Below, in pieces: positions 11,052 to 17,938 of a stretch of 20,435 nt of DNA. A program made the translations under genes and the position numbers. Below the pieces are notes generated by a model. The model saw nothing but the letters and a program-made list of their open reading frames with translations, did not search any database and was not told where the DNA came from. Origin of the DNA: a virus (lineage: Duplodnaviria; Heunggongvirae; Uroviricota; Caudoviricetes). Numbering within the stretch: the first letter of the stretch is position 1; every line of letters starts with the position of its first letter. The stretch lies in IMG/VR virus record IMGVR_UViG_3300040801_002714, positions 1 through 20,435 of that record; one strand, 5' to 3'.

Positions 11052-11520
11052 TTAAATTCTCCCAGGGATAAACAACCCAATTATCATTATGTATGTTACA
11101 GGCAACATAATCTGCTGCCCATGCAGATGTGTATCTTTCGTGCAAGCAAGCAACATGAACGTTGTCTTGAAAGTTTGATTTCGGTGGAACTGCTGTTGAC
11201 CAATCCGCGAATATATCGTTTATGGTTTTGCCTGTGTCTAGGATATCATCGACAATTAATATCTTTTGTCCGTCTTGTGCGAGTTCTGGTAACCAACTGT
11301 TGTGTTCGTTTCCTATTTGTTCGTTGTAGTCTCTAGTAGCCCAGCCTACACACTGAACAGGACAACCGAGTATATGGCTCAACATGATGCCCGGCACGGC
11401 ACCGCCTCTTACCAAAGGCACAATTATATCTGGCTTGTAGTTGTCCGCTCGCATCTTTTCTACTAAGATTTCAACTAAAGAACAAACATCGTCAAAATTT
11501 AACACAGTTTTATTTGTCAT
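11038..11520 (-). CDS. type I phosphoribosyltransferase (Gpt/Hpt-like)
   Basis: IVPLVRGGAVPG and the PRPP-binding loop ILIVDDILDTGKTI. Start moved to ATG 11520 (SD GGAG). Confidence 0.88.
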   Translation of the reverse strand: MTNKTVLNFDDVCSLVEILVEKMRADNYKPDIIVPLVRGGAVPGIMLSHILGCPVQCVGWATRDYNEQIGNEHNSWLPELAQDGQKILIVDDILDTGKTINDIFADWSTAVPPKSNFQDNVHVACLHERYTSAWAADYVACNIHNDNWVVYPWENLNGRV

Positions 11521-12607
11521 CTGGGAACTCCAGGAGCTTCGCAACCATCTTAGTTGCAGTAAAATATTTTTCTAGCAGTCTCTTTTCTAGATCTGCTTGT
11601 GTTGACATTTCTGCTTCCATAATAAGTCGAATTCGGTCAATTAGCTTGTCTTTGTGCTTGACGTAGTTATTCCAGTTAGCTGTCCATACGCCAGGGTACT
11701 TATATTGCTCTGGGTACATCTCTGTGTAGCTCAGTCTGTCAGGTACCAACGGGAACACATCAAGTATTGCGCCTTCGTACGGGCTAATGCCCAGTGTCTC
11801 TTGCAGGTTCGCACTAAACATCAGTTTGCTTTTTGCCAGTAACTGATGATATTCGGACTTGCTTAGTTGCTGTTCCTGACAAACAACAAATTCATATTCG
11901 GGCAAGCTATCTCGCAAGTCATAAAAGATCTCAGGCTGCTTCTCTGGAGCAATACGATGCGGGAAGATAATGATATTTTCTTTTTCAGTGCCGTAGTACT
12001 GTCTTAGGGTTGCTGGCATGTAATCCATTGGCCAGCCTGTTCTTAATATCTTTTGCTGCTTATCAGAATCTGGTAATCCCCAGTCTCCGCCAAATACTAC
12101 GCTATCAAACAGCCCCATGTGAAAGTTTGTAGCAAACCAATTGTAGTCGCTAGCATGAAAGAAAGAGCGCTCTGCATTGTATGTCCAGCGCTTGTCTTTG
12201 ATTAGTCTGCCTAGAAAATCTTGTGGATCATAGCTTCCGGCGTGCCACATGCTGTGTATCTCTACAGGAATCTGTAACAGTTCACTCATGTACTTTAACT
12301 GTATGATACCGGGATGCCATGCGTCTGTGAACAAGAACTTATCGCCCGGCTGTATCTCCCCTGAGAAACGCTTTGCGATATCATTCATCTGTGTGTTCTT
12401 GTAAATATTGGTTTGTTGAAAGTTCAAGAACGCACCAGGAGTAGCTTCAATAGATTCTTCGCCCCCACTGATATTGATAACCTCGACATCGACGCCTGCT
12501 AGTTGTGCTTCTCTCTGTAGCATGTTCGGCACATAAGTTTTCCACTCACACGTATAGCGAGTAGGCACAGACTCGAGGTCTACAACATAGATTCTATTCT
12601 TGCTCAT
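11510..12607 (-). CDS. GT-B fold glycosyltransferase, substrate unknown
   Basis: Two Rossmann-like halves; C-terminal IIFPHRIAPEKQPE and the donor-binding-type motif FSANLQETLGISPYEGA...PLVPDRLSYTEM. Confidence 0.75.
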   Translation of the reverse strand: MSKNRIYVVDLESVPTRYTCEWKTYVPNMLQREAQLAGVDVEVINISGGEESIEATPGAFLNFQQTNIYKNTQMNDIAKRFSGEIQPGDKFLFTDAWHPGIIQLKYMSELLQIPVEIHSMWHAGSYDPQDFLGRLIKDKRWTYNAERSFFHASDYNWFATNFHMGLFDSVVFGGDWGLPDSDKQQKILRTGWPMDYMPATLRQYYGTEKENIIIFPHRIAPEKQPEIFYDLRDSLPEYEFVVCQEQQLSKSEYHQLLAKSKLMFSANLQETLGISPYEGAILDVFPLVPDRLSYTEMYPEQYKYPGVWTANWNNYVKHKDKLIDRIRLIMEAEMSTQADLEKRLLEKYFTATKMVAKLLEFPDDK

Positions 12608-13396: not shown

Positions 13397-13592
13397 TCTT
13401 ATAATAGTGCGTTACGTCCCAATCCATCTCGTTAAATTCTGGACCGCTAGCTCCGCCTACTCTCCATGTACAATCTTCTTCTTCAACTCGTGTTAAGAGT
13501 ACTTCTTTTGTTTCGCCACTAGTGAAACTACGAATACGGCACAGGTATTCCCCGCTTGGCGGCATGTTACCTACGTCTATGTCTGTCCACAT
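13389..13592 (-). CDS. hypothetical phage protein
   Basis: Start probably ATG 13592 (MWTDIDV), with GGAG upstream. Confidence 0.55.
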   Translation of the reverse strand: MWTDIDVGNMPPSGEYLCRIRSFTSGETKEVLLTRVEEEDCTWRVGGASGPEFNEMDWDVTHYYKNG

Positions 13593-13749
13593 TGTTCCAG
13601 TACTCCTGGCTGCGCCCAACTGTATGACCGGTGCTAGTGTCTACGACTGTGAAGCCTTTGGAGATGTAGTCACATTCGTTGCACCCTTCCCAGAGATTGT
13701 CGTCCCAGAGGTTTGTGTTTCCGCATTTTGGGCATCTTGGTTTAGACAT
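13567..13749 (-). CDS. small zinc-ribbon protein
   Basis: CPKC...CNEC; strong SD GAGGAG. Confidence 0.6.
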   Translation of the reverse strand: MSKPRCPKCGNTNLWDDNLWEGCNECDYISKGFTVVDTSTGHTVGRSQEYWNNVDRHRRR

Positions 13750-13830
13750 TTCTCAAGCTCCTCGGCTTTTGCAAATAGTTCACAGTCGTGCCTTCTTTTA
13801 GCACGATGCTTCATGTTTATGACGTCGAGT

Positions 13831-14187
13831 CTAGTCTTCGTATCTTTCGATTCTTGCGCCATTTTCGTTATCCTCGCTCACCGACACAACATAGTCACGG
13901 AACGGATATTCTTCTTCTAGATAATCGAGCAGCTCTTCTGCTAGCATCTCGCAACTCTTATCATCTAGCTCAAGTGTTCCTTTTTCGTACAGACCTTCAA
14001 GCTCGCGTTTAAGCATTATAAACTCAATATCTCTGTCGTTGTGTGTAACAGTCACTTCAACACGAAAGTGAAAAATGTGTCTATGCGGGTGTGCAAGAAA
14101 GCCCACTGCAGGCGGAGCATCCGGATACTGATGAATACCTTCTTTCTGAAATGTTACCCAAATCCACTTCTTATCGTTATCACTCAT
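13831..14187 (-). CDS. QueD/PTPS-fold (T-fold) protein, DpdL-like
   Basis: FLAHPHRHIFHFRVEVTVTHNDRDIEF...SCEMLAE...VSVSEDNENG. It has LxxxHRHxF in place of the QueD CxxxHGH motif; SD GAGG. Confidence 0.75.
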   Translation of the reverse strand: MSDNDKKWIWVTFQKEGIHQYPDAPPAVGFLAHPHRHIFHFRVEVTVTHNDRDIEFIMLKRELEGLYEKGTLELDDKSCEMLAEELLDYLEEEYPFRDYVVSVSEDNENGARIERYED

Positions 14188-14392
14188 ATTCTTCCCTTAA
14201 AGCTTTTAGCAGTTTGTCACTCATTTCGAATCTAATCTTTTCTCTATTTATGTGGTCATTAACCGACACCACGTTTGTTTTCACAGACGCTACGCCCTTG
14301 ATCATTCTAATTGCATCGAGAACAGCTTCTACGTCGTCGTCTCGATAATCTTTATCGAGCGTTACTACAATGCCACTTACACGATCAGTCAT
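14180..14392 (-). CDS. hypothetical phage protein
   Basis: 70 aa, VVTLDKDYRDDDVEAVLDAIRMIKGVASV; SD AAGGTG. Confidence 0.7.
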   Translation of the reverse strand: MTDRVSGIVVTLDKDYRDDDVEAVLDAIRMIKGVASVKTNVVSVNDHINREKIRFEMSDKLLKALREEYE

Positions 14393-15386
14393 AATTCACC
14401 TTTGTGTTATTTAGGAACTGTGTTGCACAGTTATCCCAGGACCATATTTCGCTATACTTATGAACTAATCCTCTGGGCAACAGTATAGCACGATTCACGG
14501 CGTCCTGTAAATCTTCACTTAGGACTCCAGTGAGGTTTGGTTCTACAACATCAATCGGTCCTTGCACCGGATATGCTGCAACAGGCGTACCACAACTCAT
14601 TGCTTCAATCATTACTAGTCCGAATGTGTCTGTCTTGCTAGGAAACACAAAACACTTGGCGCCAGCAAATGCGTCAACTAGCTCTTGTCCTTTGAGCGCG
14701 CCACGAAACTGCAAGTCGTTTCTGTGTCCGTGTTCTTTGCGATACTGTTCTAGCATAGGACCATCGCCTACTACCACTTTGTAGCCGTCTAGTGCAAAGA
14801 AGTCTTCTAGGTTCTTTTCGATACTGACTCTTCCTACATACAGTAAATAGTTGCCTGGTTGTTCTTTGAATTGAAATTGCTCTCGGTCAACACCCCGTGT
14901 CCATGTTCTCACATTCACAAGTCGATTTGTTACCAACTTGAACATCATCTCATCTGTGGGAACTAATATGGCACTGCTTTTTCGATGAACCCATCTCATC
15001 CAATGCCATGTAAGCCATTCGGGCACATGGAACATTGCTTTTAGATACTGTGGCCAGTCTGTGTGGTATCCTGTAGTAAACTTTTTGTTTAGACTAATAC
15101 AGGCCTTCTTTGCGCGATAACCTACAGAACCCTCTGGGGTTGCGATGTGTACTATATTTGCCCACGCAATGTCGCCGTAGTATTTTTCTTTTGGTACCCA
15201 GGTGAACTTTACTTCGGGGTACGGAGTAGGAATAGAGAAACGGCCATGTTCGGGTGTTATCATCCGAACTTCGTGACCTTGTTTTTCTAGTGTCTTTGTG
15301 AGATTAGTTAGCGTAGTGACTACGCCGTTGACCTGTGGTTCCCAGGCATCACTTATTATTAGAATTTTTAGACCAGTGGATGACAC
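14385..15386 (-). CDS. GT4 glycosyltransferase, Agt-like (diacylglycerol glycosyltransferase)
   Basis: ILIISDAWEPQVNGVVTTL, HIATPEG, FTTGYHT, WTRGVD, YVGRVSIEKN, VVGDGP, FVFPSKTDTFGLVMIEAMSCGTPVAAYPVQGP. GTG start with SD GGGGAG. Confidence 0.85.
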   Translation of the reverse strand: MSSTGLKILIISDAWEPQVNGVVTTLTNLTKTLEKQGHEVRMITPEHGRFSIPTPYPEVKFTWVPKEKYYGDIAWANIVHIATPEGSVGYRAKKACISLNKKFTTGYHTDWPQYLKAMFHVPEWLTWHWMRWVHRKSSAILVPTDEMMFKLVTNRLVNVRTWTRGVDREQFQFKEQPGNYLLYVGRVSIEKNLEDFFALDGYKVVVGDGPMLEQYRKEHGHRNDLQFRGALKGQELVDAFAGAKCFVFPSKTDTFGLVMIEAMSCGTPVAAYPVQGPIDVVEPNLTGVLSEDLQDAVNRAILLPRGLVHKYSEIWSWDNCATQFLNNTKVNYD

Positions 15387-16110
15387 GAAACTCCCCTTTG
15401 TGTGTCTCTACAACTGCTGTGCAATTCTCAACCCAGTCACCTGTGTTGATGTATTCCACATCGTCGTATACTGTCATTTGTGGATGATGAATATGTCCAC
15501 AGATTACCCCATCGTAATCGTTCTTGCGAGCATAGTCTGCTAATTGTTCTTCGAACTTGTTGATAAAGTTCACTGCTCGCTTTGTGCGATCTTTTAGGTA
15601 TTTACTTAGGCTCCAGTATTCCATGCCGAACATTTTTCTTATTGCGTTCAGCTTAGTATTGGCCCAGATTAATATCTCGTATGCTTTGTCGCCTAGGTGC
15701 ATGATCCACTTTAGGTCGGCTCGCATGAGGTTATCGAACATATCGCCGTGCACTACAAGATATCGTTTTCCTGACAGTGAAACATAATCTTGTCTATTCG
15801 ACACACTGATATTTCCAAAGCTAATCTCATCGCGAATGTACTGTCGCAGTGCTTCGTCGTGATTGCCGACTACATATTCGACTTGGGTGCCTTTGTTTGA
15901 TTTGCGAAGAACACAGCGTATGATTTCGGTATGGCGTTCCGGCCAATACACTCCCTTCTGCATACGCCAGCCATCAATTATGTCACCTACGAGATAAAGA
16001 TTGTCGCAGGTATTGTTTTTTAAAAAATCCAGTAGCTGCTCGTCTCGGCATCCTCTAGTACCCAAGTGAGTATCGCTAATAAAGATGCTACGATAGTCTG
16101 TCTTTTTCAT
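15349..16110 (-). CDS. plcP: PlcP-like metallophosphoesterase (often annotated UDP-2,3-diacylglucosamine hydrolase / LpxH2)
   Basis: FISDTHLG, LVGDIIDGW, GNHD (not the LpxH GNRD), HGDMFD, CGHIHHP, YINTGDWVE. Confidence 0.85.
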   Translation of the reverse strand: MKKTDYRSIFISDTHLGTRGCRDEQLLDFLKNNTCDNLYLVGDIIDGWRMQKGVYWPERHTEIIRCVLRKSNKGTQVEYVVGNHDEALRQYIRDEISFGNISVSNRQDYVSLSGKRYLVVHGDMFDNLMRADLKWIMHLGDKAYEILIWANTKLNAIRKMFGMEYWSLSKYLKDRTKRAVNFINKFEEQLADYARKNDYDGVICGHIHHPQMTVYDDVEYINTGDWVENCTAVVETHKGEFRVIHWSKNSNNK

Positions 16111-16130
16111 TCGGTTTGGCTCACATTCAA

Positions 16131-16508
16131 TTAAGGCCGGCGGCGTCGGACCGGAGGAGGAGTTGGTGCACCTGTTGGTTTTCTGTTGGCATAAGATCTT
16201 GCAGTTCTTTGCTTTTCTCTAATGTCGTTTGGATCCGGTTCTCGAAGTGCACGAATCACCACATCCTCTTCACGGCAATAATCAGGCCGGCCAATTTTGA
16301 TTTCGTATCCACCTGCCATCAGTGGAGCCGTTGGATGCTCATATACACACATTCTTCTCCCAACATATTCGAGCCAGTGCTTTCTATGCAGCCCAAGATC
16401 TTCGTCGTATATGCGAACTGGATACCAAGCAAACCATCGGTGCCAGCGGCATACACGACTTACTTTTATATCGAATTTCTCTTGTGCTGTAGGACTCACC
16501 CAATCCAT
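16131..16508 (-). CDS. 'WFAW.PV' paralog 4
   Basis: MDWVSPT...RWHRWFAWYPVRIYD. Start moved to ATG 16508 by alignment with the upstream paralog (MRWVSPS). Confidence 0.75.
   Translation of the reverse strand: MDWVSPTAQEKFDIKVSRVCRWHRWFAWYPVRIYDEDLGLHRKHWLEYVGRRMCVYEHPTAPLMAGGYEIKIGRPDYCREEDVVIRALREPDPNDIREKQRTARSYANRKPTGAPTPPPVRRRRP
16417..16445 (+). repeat. 29-bp direct repeat, copy 1
   Basis: ACTGGATACCAAGCAAACCATCGGTGCCA, identical to 16802-16830. Confidence 0.9.
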
Positions 16509-16509
16509 C

Positions 16510-16893
16510 TCATTGCGGTGGTTCGTAAATGCCTTCTGCTTCGGCAATCTCAGGATCACCCTTTGTGTCGTTTGGCCTTTCCCATTCGCCCTTTATTTGT
16601 GCTTTTCGCGCATCGTTGATTTCCGGTTCTCTTAGAGCTCTTACTACAACGTCTTCCTCGAAGCAGTATTCGACGTGACCAAGATATTGACGGTTAGTGT
16701 TCAATGAATATTCACCATAGCGGTGATACACAGTTTTTCGCCGGCCCACATTTTCGAGCCAGCACTTTTTGAAAAATTTGATTTCCGGATCATAGATGCG
16801 GACTGGATACCAAGCAAACCATCGGTGCCACCGAGCTTGTTTTTGTGCTTTAATCCAAAACTTTTGCTTGCTGCTAGGACTCACCCACCTCAT
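16510..16893 (-). CDS. 'WFAW.PV' paralog 3
   Basis: MRWVSPS...RWHRWFAWYPVRIYD...EEDVVVRALREP. Confidence 0.75.
   Translation of the reverse strand: MRWVSPSSKQKFWIKAQKQARWHRWFAWYPVRIYDPEIKFFKKCWLENVGRRKTVYHRYGEYSLNTNRQYLGHVEYCFEEDVVVRALREPEINDARKAQIKGEWERPNDTKGDPEIAEAEGIYEPPQ
16802..16830 (+). repeat. 29-bp direct repeat, copy 2
   Basis: Identical to 16417-16445. Confidence 0.9.
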
Positions 16894-17096
16894 CTCCCCC
16901 TAAGCTCCGTGACTAGTGCATCGTGCAAGAAGTAGTACTGCCACACCCAGTCTCCGTAAAACTGCGCATCGTGTGAATCCGCAACTCGACGTCTGGCTAC
17001 ACCGCGCAGCCAAATCATTTTGTGATATTCAACGTGCGGGTCCCAAACCCAAACAGGGCGCCATGCAAACCAAGGCTTCCACTGTGACACGACCAT
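16890..17096 (-). CDS. 'WFAW.PV' paralog 2
   Basis: QWKPWFAWRPVWVWD...WLRGVARR. Confidence 0.7.
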   Translation of the reverse strand: MVVSQWKPWFAWRPVWVWDPHVEYHKMIWLRGVARRRVADSHDAQFYGDWVWQYYFLHDALVTELRGR

Positions 17097-17101
17097 ACTA
17101 G

Positions 17102-17371
17102 TTATGCGTTGCCGACCAGGCGATCTGCTACAACATCACCAGTGTCACGATATTCGGTGAACCGATGATTATAGAACAATCCGTCTTTGTAAAGACGCTG
17201 CTGAACAGTGCGACGAACGACGCCTACACAAAAGCGCCAGCTTTTGGTACCGTCAGACTGAACGAGTTGCACAGGATGCCAGGCCCACCACTTTGACCAG
17301 AGACTGGTCTTTTCTTCGTAGATGCCATATCCGTCTTCGTTCATTTCCATTTTTGCATCTGTTCCGTCCAT
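17102..17371 (-). CDS. 'WFAW.PV' paralog 1
   Basis: LWSKWWAWHPVQLV...VGVVRR; SD GAGGA. Confidence 0.7.
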   Translation of the reverse strand: MDGTDAKMEMNEDGYGIYEEKTSLWSKWWAWHPVQLVQSDGTKSWRFCVGVVRRTVQQRLYKDGLFYNHRFTEYRDTGDVVADRLVGNA

Positions 17372-17374
17372 TGC

Positions 17375-17938
17375 TTAATCCTCTTTAGGCTTGTTACGGC
17401 GAATTTTACGTAAAGCTTTAATATCACTGTCACGCATAATAACTTCGTCGTTGCCGTAGTCAACCCAGGGAGTAAAGCGATTTCTGTCCAGCAAATCGTG
17501 CTGTGGAATACACCACACACCTGTGTTAGTGCCTTGGAAATCAGTATCGTCTACTTTTAGTACTAGATTCTTACTAAAGGTTTCGACGTAAGGCACAATG
17601 CAACTTACCATCGGAATAAAGTGGGGGTGCGCTGCATACTTGCCAGGCAATGTGTCTACCACAAACTGCTGAGCGCTTGCAGGATAGTCCAGTGTTACCC
17701 AGAAGCCTTCATCCAACAGAGCAGGAACAATCTCTGCCCATAGCTTGTTATTCTGAAAACTTCTATTAGCACCTAGATAAATGTGTGGACAGTTGTGTTC
17801 TCTTGCGAGATCAATCATTTGTTGAATACCACGAACACCTACAACAAAAAGTGTCTTCTTGCTAAATGCAGCACTGGTTTCGACTTCTGGTCCTACAAAG
17901 TACACAGCATCATCGTGGTCTTGTCTCTCGATAGTCAT
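17375..17938 (-). CDS. hypothetical protein near the DpdA-like gene
   Basis: 187 aa, YFVGPEVE...KTLFVVG...HIYLGANRSF...WVTLD...FIPMVS...LKVDDTDFQGTNTGVWC; SD AAGGA. Confidence 0.75.
   Translation of the reverse strand: MTIERQDHDDAVYFVGPEVETSAAFSKKTLFVVGVRGIQQMIDLAREHNCPHIYLGANRSFQNNKLWAEIVPALLDEGFWVTLDYPASAQQFVVDTLPGKYAAHPHFIPMVSCIVPYVETFSKNLVLKVDDTDFQGTNTGVWCIPQHDLLDRNRFTPWVDYGNDEVIMRDSDIKALRKIRRNKPKED

What the first reader, a model, noticed from the sequence alone, without database searches (positions are those of the whole stretch)
14385..16110. Phage-borne plcP-agt-like pair: a virus-encoded phospholipid-to-glycolipid remodelling module
Seen: a metallophosphoesterase with GNHD whose stop overlaps the start of a GT4 beginning ILIISDAWEPQVNGVV. 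Established: in Sinorhizobium, Agrobacterium, SAR11 and Pseudomonas, PlcP (GNHD, versus GNRD in LpxH) removes phospholipid head groups and Agt glycosylates the released diacylglycerol under phosphate starvation, and the genes are often adjacent. Inference: the phage could mine host membrane phosphate for DNA synthesis and/or alter the envelope during infection. I do not recall a characterised phage-encoded version of this complete pair.
Basis: partly seen in the sequence, partly recalled or inferred. Interest (0 to 1): 0.85.

Follow-up and report, generated by a model that had tools for sequence, protein, structure and literature searches.

The report
Phage-borne PlcP-Agt membrane lipid-swap genes
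A large uncultured phage from a microbial mat carries its own copies of the two bacterial enzymes that replace phosphorus-containing membrane lipids with sugar lipids. Virus surveys have so far listed the first of these genes under the wrong name ("LpxH").

Summary
Two overlapping minus-strand genes (15349-16110 and 14385-15386) encode a 253-aa metallophosphoesterase with GNHD and a 333-aa GT4 glycosyltransferase.

- **First gene is PlcP, not LpxH.** It scores 42-50 bits on NCBI's LpxH models (cut-offs 134 and 190). It falls in the PlcP clade, split 100/100 from true LpxH. It is 47% identical to the P. aeruginosa PA3219-type protein and 45% to the S. meliloti one. The characterised PlcPs are about that similar to each other.
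- **Second gene is Agt-type.** It has every residue and motif shown to be essential in the SAR11 glycolipid synthase GTcp. It is 40% identical to P. aeruginosa Agt1.
- **The setting is viral.** The DNA polymerase gene lies 4 kb away, composition matches the other phage genes, and independent short contigs cross all three junctions. The same ordered pair sits next to capsid, polymerase and clamp-loader genes in many other IMG/VR contigs.
- **Open points.** This copy has no Pho box and no pstS nearby, so its regulation and selective benefit (phosphorus release or envelope change) are inferred.
- **Prior knowledge.** I found no paper describing phage PlcP-Agt. Cultured phages Mosig and S-SRM01 carry only a solo PlcP-like gene labelled LpxH. 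This scan has already flagged the pair on other DNA (47 notes in at least 43 genomes).

The parts
15349..16110 (-). plcP-like gene: 253-aa LpxH-fold metallophosphoesterase (predicted phospholipase C acting on membrane phospholipids)
   Evidence: Translation. Pfam Metallophos families. LpxH HMMs give only 42.5 and 49.8 bits against cut-offs of 190 and 134. All six metal and catalytic motifs are invariant in an alignment of 25 homologues: D13, H15, G42-D43, G82-N83-H84-D85, H121, G205-H206, H208. It is 47% identical to the P. aeruginosa PA3219-type protein and 45% to the S. meliloti protein. It sits in the PlcP clade of the careful tree. The model has an LpxH-like core plus a helical cap, and the top 25 PDB matches are all LpxH at 17-20% identity.
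14385..15386 (-). agt-like gene: 333-aa retaining GT4 glycosyltransferase (predicted diacylglycerol glycosyl- or glucuronosyl-transferase)
   Evidence: Translation. Pfam GT4 families. It has H108, T163-R164, GRVSIEKN at 185-192, FPSKTDTFG at 248-256 (D253), E261 and W317. These match the residues shown essential in GTcp, and all but T163 are invariant or nearly so in 80 representatives. It is 40% identical (E 2e-73) to the P. aeruginosa Agt1-type protein. The model has pLDDT 93 with a GT-B fold. Nearest reviewed structures are lipid-acceptor GT4s: MgtA-type, alpha-monoglucosyl-DAG synthases and SQD2.
15349..15398 (-). gene junction: 38-nt overlap of the plcP 3' end with the agt 5' end, with a Shine-Dalgarno-like AAGGGGAG (15398-15391) 4 nt before the GTG start at 15386
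   Evidence: Read directly from the sequence. The same order, with overlapping or near-abutting ORFs, is seen in most related loci.

Best explanation
These two genes are a genuine phage-encoded copy of the bacterial PlcP-Agt lipid-renovation pathway.

Shown here: the family assignment of both proteins, their intact catalytic residues, their conserved order and shared ancestry, and their location inside a phage genome.

Inferred from the characterised bacterial orthologues: during infection the PlcP-like enzyme cleaves the phospho-head group from host glycerophospholipids (PE, PG, PC) and leaves diacylglycerol. The translationally coupled Agt-like enzyme transfers a sugar (glucose, galactose or glucuronic acid from a UDP-sugar) onto that diacylglycerol. 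Membrane phospholipid is thereby replaced by phosphorus-free glycolipid, and the membrane stays intact.

Inferred with less certainty: the benefit is release of lipid phosphorus for phage nucleotide and DNA synthesis in phosphorus-poor hosts, and possibly a changed envelope as well. In this phage the pair lies in a tight co-directional gene array near the replication genes and has no Pho box. It is therefore probably transcribed with the phage's own programme rather than by the host PhoB switch.
For: - **Not LpxH.** TIGR01854 gives 42.5 bits and NF003743 gives 49.8 bits, against cut-offs of 190 and 134. Across 121 Pseudomonadota genomes the same HMM is bimodal. True LpxH scores 182-369 bits. 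A second paralogue scores 38-58 bits, and seven genomes hold both.
- **Tree.** The LpxH/PlcP split is 100/100. The window protein lies in the clade that contains the S. meliloti and P. aeruginosa PlcP-type proteins.
- **Motif.** GNHD occurs in 226 of 235 PlcP-like proteins. GNRD occurs in 28 of 30 LpxH.
- **Identity to PlcP anchors.** It is 47% identical to the P. aeruginosa protein and 45% to the S. meliloti protein. Published identities between characterised PlcPs are 46-47% (PMC8528852).
- **Agt features.** All GTcp functional residues and both UDP-sugar motifs are present (PMC8231724). Identity to Agt1-type is 40%. Nearest named folds are DAG- or lipid-glycosylating GT4s.
- **Synteny in bacteria.** 13 of 18 randomly drawn bacterial PlcP loci have this GT4 immediately downstream. 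The P. aeruginosa PA3219-PA3218-cyaB arrangement is one example.
- **Shared ancestry.** The two genes have the same nearest relatives (L003, L004, L005) in separate trees, with 98* and 97* support.
- **Viral setting of this copy.** Neighbours match phage families, including peptide deformylase, a QueE-like protein, an exonuclease and a virion protein. A T4-type DNA polymerase gene lies at 20470-23430. GC content and codon usage resemble the other phage genes. Short contigs bridge all three junctions.
- **Viral setting elsewhere.** The same pair lies beside a major head protein, a T4-type DNA polymerase and a clamp loader in other IMG/VR contigs.
Against: - No enzyme activity, lipid analysis or expression data exist for this or any phage copy.
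- No Pho box lies upstream. The best match has 6 mismatches, equal to the shuffled expectation. No pstS or ugd gene was found in the 97 kb held. The link to phosphate stress is therefore weaker here than in the bacterial operons.
- Rough phosphorus budget (my arithmetic). A genome of about 390 kb (97 kb at CheckV's 25% completeness) needs about 0.78 million P atoms. Marine heterotrophs hold 0.5-2.6 million P atoms in phospholipid (PMC4796936). Even full conversion would pay for only about 1-3 genome copies.
- The sugar donor and the lipid head-group specificity cannot be read from the sequence.
- The helical cap of the PlcP model has low confidence, with pLDDT 45-70.
- The S. meliloti anchor is taken to be the SMc00171 orthologue only because it is the sole homologue in that 3.72-Mb replicon.
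Confidence: 0.75

Rival explanations
1. The biochemistry is the same (phospholipid to glycolipid), but the selected benefit is not phosphorus supply. The phage changes the envelope's charge or composition for another purpose. Candidates are blocking superinfection, altering receptors or membrane proteins, tuning lysis, or supporting a jumbo-phage compartment or membrane demand.
For: This copy has no Pho box or pstS and lies among replication and DNA-modification genes. The phosphorus yield from lipids is small next to a roughly 390-kb genome. In bacteria, lipid renovation changes membrane protein content and antibiotic and phage-related properties (PMC9804370).
Against: In the cultured relative Mosig the PlcP-like gene sits divergently next to a phosphate ABC-transporter (pstS-type) gene. 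Earlier notes of this scan report Pho boxes and pstS beside the pair in other phages (not tested here). Bacterial PlcP abundance tracks low phosphate (PMC4796936).
Confidence: 0.17
2. The GT4 glycosylates some other acceptor (LPS or capsule precursor, protein, or modified phage DNA), and the phosphoesterase is a generic phosphodiesterase. Their adjacency would then be unrelated to diacylglycerol.
For: GT4 is a very large family with many acceptors. The pair lies in a region with 7-deazaguanine-pathway genes and another glycosyltransferase-like gene. No activity data exist.
Against: The residues implicated in DAG binding in GTcp (H104, R163, W320) are conserved as H108, R164 and W317. Identity to Agt1 is 40%, against at most 22% to solved GT4s of other function. 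The gene order plcP then agt is the conserved bacterial operon. The phosphoesterase has the LpxH-type lipid-enzyme architecture rather than that of nucleases or generic phosphodiesterases.
Confidence: 0.05
3. The first gene is a true LpxH (UDP-2,3-diacylglucosamine hydrolase) that boosts host lipid A synthesis, as the database labels and viromics AMG tables say.
For: Sources annotate close homologues as LpxH. LpxH is the nearest solved structure. Viromics papers list 'lpxH' (K03269) under LPS biosynthesis (PMC10653327 and PMC9611531).
Against: Scores are 42-50 bits against curated cut-offs of 134 and 190. Identity to solved LpxH is 17-20%. The motif is GNHD, not LpxH's GNRD. The protein lies on the other side of a 100/100 split from LpxH. 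Homologues occur in 146 of 401 sampled Alphaproteobacteria, and in the LpxH-model sample five of these scored only 38-46 bits at the same places, with no hit over the cut-off.
Confidence: 0.02
4. The segment is host DNA or an assembly chimera inside a mis-called viral contig.
For: IMG/VR contains some host fragments. The record is only about 25% complete and linear. The sequencing runs that hold it come from one study, probably the source sample.
Against: Genes on both sides match phage families, all are co-oriented, and gaps are tiny. The DNA polymerase gene is 4.4 kb away. GC is 0.43-0.44 against 0.45 for the genome, and codon-usage cosine is 0.92-0.93, within the range of the other phage genes. 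Perfect-identity short contigs cross 14385, 15349-15386 and 16110. The nearest relatives of both genes are on other viral contigs, not bacteria.
Confidence: 0.01

Closest known systems
Bacterial PlcP-Agt lipid-renovation pathway (S. meliloti PlcP; Phaeobacter MED193_17359; SAR11 HTCC7211 PB7211_983 with PB7211_960/GTcp; P. aeruginosa PA3219 with PA3218/Agt1)
   Same: The two protein families and the gene order (plcP upstream, agt downstream, often overlapping) are the same. The catalytic and substrate-binding residues are the same. Identity to the P. aeruginosa and S. meliloti proteins is 40-47%, as high as the published identities among the characterised PlcP and Agt proteins.
   Different: The pair is encoded by a virus. 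No Pho box is recognisable. It is embedded in a phage replication and DNA-modification gene array. Activity and sugar specificity are untested.
LpxH (UDP-2,3-diacylglucosamine hydrolase of lipid A synthesis)
   Same: It has the same metallophosphoesterase core with an inserted helical cap. LpxH is the best structural match, and the same database label is applied.
   Different: Identity is 17-20%. The motif is GNHD, not GNRD. Scores are far below the curated LpxH thresholds. It forms a separate clade that coexists with true LpxH in the same genomes.
Solo PlcP-like genes of cultured phages: Pelagibacter phage Mosig EXVC030M (Mosig_00120) and Synechococcus phage S-SRM01 (QPX48289.1)
   Same: These are phage-encoded members of the same PlcP-like family, at 47% and 37% identity. 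Mosig plus one IMG/VR contig (L053) form the sister group (93/91) of the window's small clade. Both are labelled LpxH.
   Different: Neither has an Agt-like gene next to it. In Mosig the gene is divergent from a pstS-type gene. The genome announcement for Mosig does not discuss it.
Known phage auxiliary genes for phosphate stress or lipids (pstS, phoH; cyanophage lipid desaturases, cited in PMC12282109)
   Same: These are host-derived metabolic genes carried by phages of nutrient-poor waters and thought to sustain infection.
   Different: Those genes act on phosphate uptake or on acyl-chain saturation. This pair would exchange the lipid head groups themselves. A 2025 paper states that little is known about lipid-remodelling strategies in infected cells.

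Membership tests
PlcP (metallophosphoesterase-type phospholipase C of lipid renovation) | Complete calcineurin-like metallophosphoesterase motif set (DxH, GD, GNH[DE], H, GH, GHxH) | tested here: met
   D13/H15, G42-D43, G82-N83-H84-D85, H121, G205-H206 and H208 are all invariant among 25 homologues.
PlcP (metallophosphoesterase-type phospholipase C of lipid renovation) | Groups with characterised PlcPs and apart from LpxH in a phylogeny | tested here: met
   The careful IQ-TREE run gives a 100/100 LpxH/PlcP split. The clade holds the S. meliloti and P. aeruginosa PlcP-type anchors and the window protein.
PlcP (metallophosphoesterase-type phospholipase C of lipid renovation) | Sequence similarity to characterised members at the level they share with each other (46-47%; published searches used BLASTP E < 1e-40) | tested here: met
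   Identity is 47% (E 6e-83) to the P. aeruginosa PA3219-type protein and 45% (E 2e-80) to the S. meliloti protein. Reference values come from PMC8528852 and PMC4796936. The MED193 and HTCC7211 sequences themselves could not be fetched.
PlcP (metallophosphoesterase-type phospholipase C of lipid renovation) | Gene for a non-phosphorus-lipid synthase (agt, btaAB or similar) immediately downstream | tested here: met
   An Agt-like GT4 overlaps the stop codon by 38 nt. The same arrangement occurs in 13 of 18 random bacterial loci.
PlcP (metallophosphoesterase-type phospholipase C of lipid renovation) | PhoB/Pho-box control and induction by phosphate starvation | tested here: not met
   No Pho-box-like site lies upstream. 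The window has 3 loose matches against 2.6 expected, none before the gene. The best site in the 250 nt upstream has 6 of 14 mismatches, equal to shuffles. This is a feature of the pathway's regulation in bacteria, not of the protein family. Only the E. coli-type consensus was tried.
PlcP (metallophosphoesterase-type phospholipase C of lipid renovation) | Phospholipase C activity releasing diacylglycerol from PE, PG or PC | not testable with these tools
   Needs an enzyme assay or mutant complementation.
Agt/GTcp clade of GT4 (diacylglycerol glucosyl-/glucuronosyl-transferase) | GT-B fold, GT4 family, about 334 aa | tested here: met
   The protein is 333 aa and matches Pfam Glyco_transf_4 plus Glycos_transf_1. 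The model has pLDDT 93.3 with two Rossmann-like domains. PDB matches are retaining GT4 enzymes.
Agt/GTcp clade of GT4 (diacylglycerol glucosyl-/glucuronosyl-transferase) | Catalytic dyad His104-Asp256 (Asp rather than the usual Glu) and UDP-sugar motifs GRVAXEKN and FPSXTDTFG (PMC8231724) | tested here: met
   H108 and D253 are present, with GRVSIEKN at 185-192 and FPSKTDTFG at 248-256. H108, R186, K191, P249, S250, G256 and E261 are invariant in 80 representatives.
Agt/GTcp clade of GT4 (diacylglycerol glucosyl-/glucuronosyl-transferase) | Residues needed for diacylglycerol binding in GTcp (His104, Arg163, Trp320) | tested here: met
   H108, R164 and W317 are present. W317 and H108 are invariant, and position 164 is R or K in all 80 sequences.
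Agt/GTcp clade of GT4 (diacylglycerol glucosyl-/glucuronosyl-transferase) | Clearly closer to characterised Agt enzymes than to other GT4s (the paper reports under 25% to other GT4 members) | tested here: met
   Identity is 40% (E 2e-73) to the P. aeruginosa Agt1-type protein, against 14-22% to solved GT4s. No formal GT4-wide tree with outgroups was built.
Agt/GTcp clade of GT4 (diacylglycerol glucosyl-/glucuronosyl-transferase) | Synthesis of MGlc-, MGal- or GlcA-diacylglycerol from UDP-sugars | not testable with these tools
   Needs heterologous expression with lipidomics. Donor specificity differs even among characterised members.
LpxH (lipid A pathway) | Score above the curated equivalog cut-offs of TIGR01854 / NF003743 | tested here: not met
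   Scores are 42.5 against 190.35 bits and 49.8 against 134 bits.
LpxH (lipid A pathway) | GNRD variant of metallophosphoesterase motif III | tested here: not met
   The window protein has GNHD. GNRD occurs in 28 of 30 proteins matched by the LpxH model, 29 of which are over its cut-off, and in the solved LpxH sequences aligned.

The most novel reading that the evidence does not exclude
Head-group exchange of host membrane lipids (PlcP with Agt, sometimes with a Ugd-like gene) is a widespread and so far unrecognised class of phage auxiliary metabolism. It is hidden in virus surveys under the label 'lpxH / LPS biosynthesis'. In lineages like this one it is wired into the phage's own gene programme rather than the host Pho regulon. 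Infection itself, and not only phosphate starvation, would then convert phospholipid to glycolipid in natural populations. That would affect phosphorus budgets and the use of glycolipid-to-phospholipid ratios as markers of phosphorus stress.
Probability: 0.45. Interest if true: 0.75.

Novelty: new variant of a known kind. Interest (0 to 1): 0.62.

Why it matters
Phages of nutrient-poor waters are known to carry phosphate-uptake genes, but the host membrane has not been described as a phosphorus reserve that viruses tap with their own enzymes. If the pair works as in bacteria, three things follow.

- Part of the 'lpxH' signal in viral metagenomes is misread.
- Some environmental PlcP counts and glycolipid signals attributed to starving bacteria may come from infected cells.
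- A cultured system exists for a first test: Pelagibacter phage Mosig, which carries a solo PlcP-like gene.

The enzymes are small and soluble enough to assay with established complementation and lipidomics protocols.

Tried and rejected
- **Named references for HTCC7211 (GTcp) and MED193 PlcP.** I could not retrieve these sequences. Cluster look-ups returned no organism names. The single genome-contig scan returned only the nearest relatives. Anchors came instead from PLSDB records that are really chromosome sequence and from a named P. aeruginosa cluster.
- **Near-identical DNA in the phage collection.** No match was found.
- **LpxH family search in the window's own genome.** The tool's first look found nothing, although hmmscan does give a weak match. 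I treat this as a filter effect.
- **Pho box.** None was found upstream here or in 52 representative viral loci, using the E. coli-type consensus. Other consensus forms and sites further upstream, before an upstream operon gene, were not tried. This is not evidence that the relatives lack control.
- **Promoters.** The T4 late-promoter motif TATAAATA does not occur in the window. Sigma-70-like sites are not above chance, with 5 found against 6.2 expected.
- **Expression.** No RNA holder is listed among public runs.
- **Read laying.** Only low-depth contigs from one study could be laid, and some bins have no cover.
- **PDB sequence search.** It found no solved PlcP or Agt.
- **First quick tree.** It included two wrongly picked LpxH ORFs with branch length 10. 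I rebuilt the tree without them.
- **Literature.** These term sets returned no paper on phage-encoded PlcP or Agt: 'PlcP' with phage, viral, viruses or auxiliary metabolic; 'lpxH' with auxiliary metabolic genes; and lipid remodelling with phage-encoded. The library lacks most subscription journals.
Full report
**1. What is in the sequence**

All substantial ORFs of the window lie on the minus strand with very small gaps. ORF 15349-16110 encodes 253 aa beginning MKKTDYRSIFISDTHLG, with GNHD at residues 82-85. ORF 14385-15386 encodes 333 aa whose residues 7-23 read KILIISDAWEPQVNGVV.

The first gene's TGA is at 15351-15349. The only canonical start of the second gene is GTG at 15386, four bases after GGGGAG, so the genes overlap by 38 nt and look translationally coupled. 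Pfam assigns the first gene to the calcineurin-like metallophosphoesterases. It assigns the second to GT4 (Glyco_transf_4 plus Glycos_transf_1).

**2. Is it phage DNA?**

The window is the first 20.4 kb of a 97,170-base IMG/VR virus record that CheckV rates 25% complete. That implies a genome of several hundred kb.

- Neighbours match phage families: phrog_12062, phrog_17812, peptide deformylase, a phosphoribosyl transferase, a QueE-like radical-SAM protein, an RNase H-type exonuclease and a virion structural protein.
- A T4-type DNA polymerase gene lies at 20470-23430 and a clamp loader at 46763-47692.
- The pair's GC (0.425 and 0.443) and codon usage (cosine 0.92-0.93 to other phage genes) fall within the range of the phage's other genes. 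Genome GC is 0.454.
- The DNA is held by runs of one microbial-mat metagenome study. Perfect-identity short contigs cross the downstream junction (13951-14628), the plcP/agt junction (15087-15713) and the upstream junction (16029-16192). These runs probably include the source sample, so this excludes a mis-join but is not independent replication.

**3. The phosphoesterase is PlcP-type, not LpxH**

NCBI's LpxH equivalog models score it at 42.5 and 49.8 bits, against cut-offs of 190 and 134.

Running the same LpxH model over 121 Pseudomonadota genomes gives two separate populations. One is true LpxH at 182-369 bits. The other is a paralogue at 38-58 bits. Seven genomes hold both. The phage protein belongs to the low population.

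Homologues at 42-59% identity occur, mostly as a single copy, in 146 of 401 sampled Alphaproteobacteria. Five of these genomes were also in the LpxH-model sample. There the same places scored only 38-46 bits and no LpxH hit passed the cut-off.

Two named anchors were found. Some PLSDB 'plasmid' records are in fact chromosomal sequence.

- A 3.72-Mb S. meliloti replicon has exactly one homologue, at 45% identity and E 2e-80.
- P. aeruginosa records carry a 270-aa protein followed by a family-1 glycosyltransferase and an adenylate cyclase. This is the PA3219-PA3218-cyaB arrangement. The phage protein is 47% identical to a named P. aeruginosa protein of this type (P0330), with E 6e-83.

Jones et al. 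report 46-47% identity between PA3219 and the Phaeobacter and S. meliloti PlcPs (PMC8528852). The phage protein is thus as close to characterised PlcPs as they are to each other.

In a careful maximum-likelihood tree, LpxH and the PlcP-like proteins are split with 100/100 support by a very long branch. Both anchors and the window protein fall on the PlcP side. GNHD is present in 226 of 235 PlcP-like proteins, and GNRD in 28 of 30 LpxH (also visible in the PDB alignments). GNHD is the ordinary metallophosphoesterase motif, so it argues against LpxH rather than for PlcP specifically.

All metal-binding motifs are invariant in an alignment of 25 homologues. The AlphaFold model (pLDDT 77.7) has a confident core and a less confident helical insertion at about residues 122-196. 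Its 25 best PDB matches are all LpxH at 17-20% identity. This fits a lipid-acting enzyme of LpxH architecture but a different family.

**4. The glycosyltransferase is Agt-type**

Wei et al. (PMC8231724) defined the functional features of the SAR11 enzyme GTcp, which is 334 aa:

- a His104-Asp256 catalytic dyad, with Asp rather than Glu;
- the UDP-sugar motifs GRVAXEKN and FPSXTDTFG;
- donor-site residues R190, K195, T257, F258, G259 and E264;
- diacylglycerol-site residues H104, T162, R163 and W320.

The phage protein (333 aa) has the matching residues:

- H108 and T163-R164;
- GRVSIEKN at 185-192 (R186, K191);
- FPSKTDTFG at 248-256 (D253, T254, F255, G256);
- E261 and W317.

All of these except T163 are invariant or nearly so in 80 representatives from viral and bacterial loci.

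It is 40% identical (E 2e-73) to the P. aeruginosa Agt1-type protein. That is comparable to the published 41% between Agt1 and the Phaeobacter Agt. Identity to solved GT4 enzymes of other function is 14-22%. The model is confident (pLDDT 93.3, GT-B fold). Its nearest reviewed AlphaFold entries are lipid-acceptor GT4s: MgtA-type mannosyltransferases, the alpha-monoglucosyl-diacylglycerol synthases of S. pneumoniae and A. laidlawii, and plant SQD2.

**5. The pair as a unit**

- **Bacteria.** In 13 of 18 bacterial PlcP loci taken from genomes drawn at random, the Agt-like gene lies immediately downstream. This matches the 'type 2' arrangement described by Sebastian et al..
- **IMG/VR loci.** Of 78 loci with PlcP from the PlcP search (80 kept), 43 have the GT4 downstream, 34 of them within 150 nt. 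Of 71 loci with the GT4 from the GT4 search (77 loci), 58 have PlcP upstream on the same strand, 52 of them within 150 nt.
- **Nearest relatives.** In separate trees both window proteins have the same closest relatives, the viral contigs L003, L004 and L005, with 98* and 97* support. The pair is therefore inherited together in this phage lineage.
- **Wider placement.** The PlcP of this lineage is sister (93/91) to the clade of Pelagibacter phage Mosig. It lies in a nearly all-viral group that is sister (98/98) to PlcPs of Hyphomonadaceae, Robiginitomaculaceae and Parvularculaceae. The bacterial sample is small and biased, so no donor is claimed.
- **Phage hallmark genes beside the pair.** Flanks of the pair in other viral contigs include a major head protein (9e-161) and a helicase in L013, a T4-type DNA polymerase (1005 bits) in L120, and a clamp loader in L005. 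The pair is therefore truly phage-borne in several lineages.
- **Ugd-like gene in relatives.** In L003 and L005 a UDP-glucose-dehydrogenase-like gene sits directly upstream of plcP. It would supply UDP-glucuronate. This window has two small paralogous genes of unknown function there instead.

**6. Mechanism**

Shown: family membership, intact active sites, coupling, and the viral setting.

Inferred from the bacterial orthologues: PlcP removes the phospho-head group of PE, PG or PC and leaves diacylglycerol. Agt then glycosylates that diacylglycerol.

The purpose is less certain. Support for a phosphorus link comes from Mosig, where the PlcP-like gene is divergent from a pstS-type gene. It also comes from earlier notes of this scan that report Pho boxes and pstS beside the pair in other phages (not tested here).

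Against a simple phosphorus-mining story for this copy:

- No Pho-box-like site was found.
- No pstS or ugd gene lies in the 97 kb held.
About 0.78 million P atoms are needed per roughly 390-kb genome. Marine heterotrophs hold 0.5-2.6 million P atoms in phospholipid.

Envelope modification is therefore kept as a serious rival for the benefit, with the same chemistry.

**7. What is known**

Among 50,697 phage records, eight hold a PlcP-like gene. The best are Mosig (47%) and Synechococcus phage S-SRM01 (37%). Both are labelled LpxH, both lack an adjacent GT4, and none holds an Agt-like gene above 32% identity. The Mosig announcement does not mention the gene.

Viromics papers list 'lpxH' (K03269) under LPS biosynthesis, in surface Mediterranean viromes and in Lake Baikal viral transcripts. 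Searches combining PlcP, lipid remodelling, phage, viral and auxiliary metabolic genes found no description of phage-encoded PlcP or Agt. A 2025 paper states that little is known about lipid remodelling in infected cells. The library lacks most subscription journals, so this absence is not proof.

This scan has flagged the same pair before on other DNA, with 47 notes in at least 43 genomes.

**8. Verdict**

The physiological role is inferred. This is a new, virus-encoded variant of a known bacterial pathway. This particular copy is notable for lacking any recognisable phosphate-starvation control.

Noticed in passing
window 16131-16559 and 16510-16893 (- strand): The two genes directly upstream of plcP are tandem paralogues, 53% identical over 100 aa (E 2e-35). 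They share a WHRWFAWYPVRIYD core and match no Pfam or PHROG family. They occupy the position where the closest relatives have a Ugd-like gene.
   Followed up: partly
L003:3193-4014 and L005:3199-3999 (+ strand): In the two closest viral relatives, a roughly 270-aa UDP-glucose-dehydrogenase-like gene (phrog_9148, E about 1e-47, covering only part of the profile) lies immediately upstream of plcP. This suggests a three-gene Ugd-PlcP-Agt module able to make glucuronosyl-diacylglycerol. No such gene was found in the 97 kb of this phage.
   Followed up: partly
L001 (Pelagibacter phage Mosig, MT647606.1 93031-94866): The cultured pelagiphage Mosig carries a solo PlcP-like gene annotated as UDP-2,3-diacylglucosamine hydrolase. 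It is divergently transcribed from a phosphate ABC-transporter (pstS-type) gene. This is a ready experimental system for phage PlcP.
   Followed up: partly
L227 (OZ019758.1, Holophagaceae MAG 'chromosome 1', 1.21 Mb): This bacterial-labelled record's PlcP nests inside the otherwise viral clade, next to viral contig L031 (100/92), and it has the Agt-like gene adjacent. It may be a prophage, a binned phage contig, or a transfer from phage to host.
   Followed up: no
G001 (Hellea balneolensis) and G002 (Hyphomonas pacifica): In the bacteria whose PlcP is closest to the phage's (55-60% identity), the Agt-like gene is not adjacent and lies on another contig. 61 of the 79 nearest bacterial PlcP loci have no GT4 downstream despite room for one, and 10 more are cut off too close to the contig end to tell.
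   Followed up: partly
CP090106.1, NZ_CP137508.1 (PLSDB): Records filed as plasmids look like chromosomal sequence. One is a 3.72-Mb S. meliloti 'pSymB'. Another is a 96-kb P. aeruginosa 'plasmid' carrying the PA3219-PA3217 region. This helped here but is a caveat for plasmid statistics.
   Followed up: no
window 13500-17500: Terminator-like hairpins are more frequent than in shuffles (8 found against 2.8 +/- 1.8 expected). Several lie inside the paralogous upstream genes on both strands (for example 16822-16834).
   Followed up: no
window 11510-12607 (- strand): This 365-aa ORF has no Pfam or PHROG match. It is distinct from the Agt-like gene and unexplained.
   Followed up: no
L050:4746-5633: In one 260-kb viral contig, two genes are inserted between plcP and agt. 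One of them is a RimK-like ATP-grasp gene (phrog_2599).
   Followed up: no
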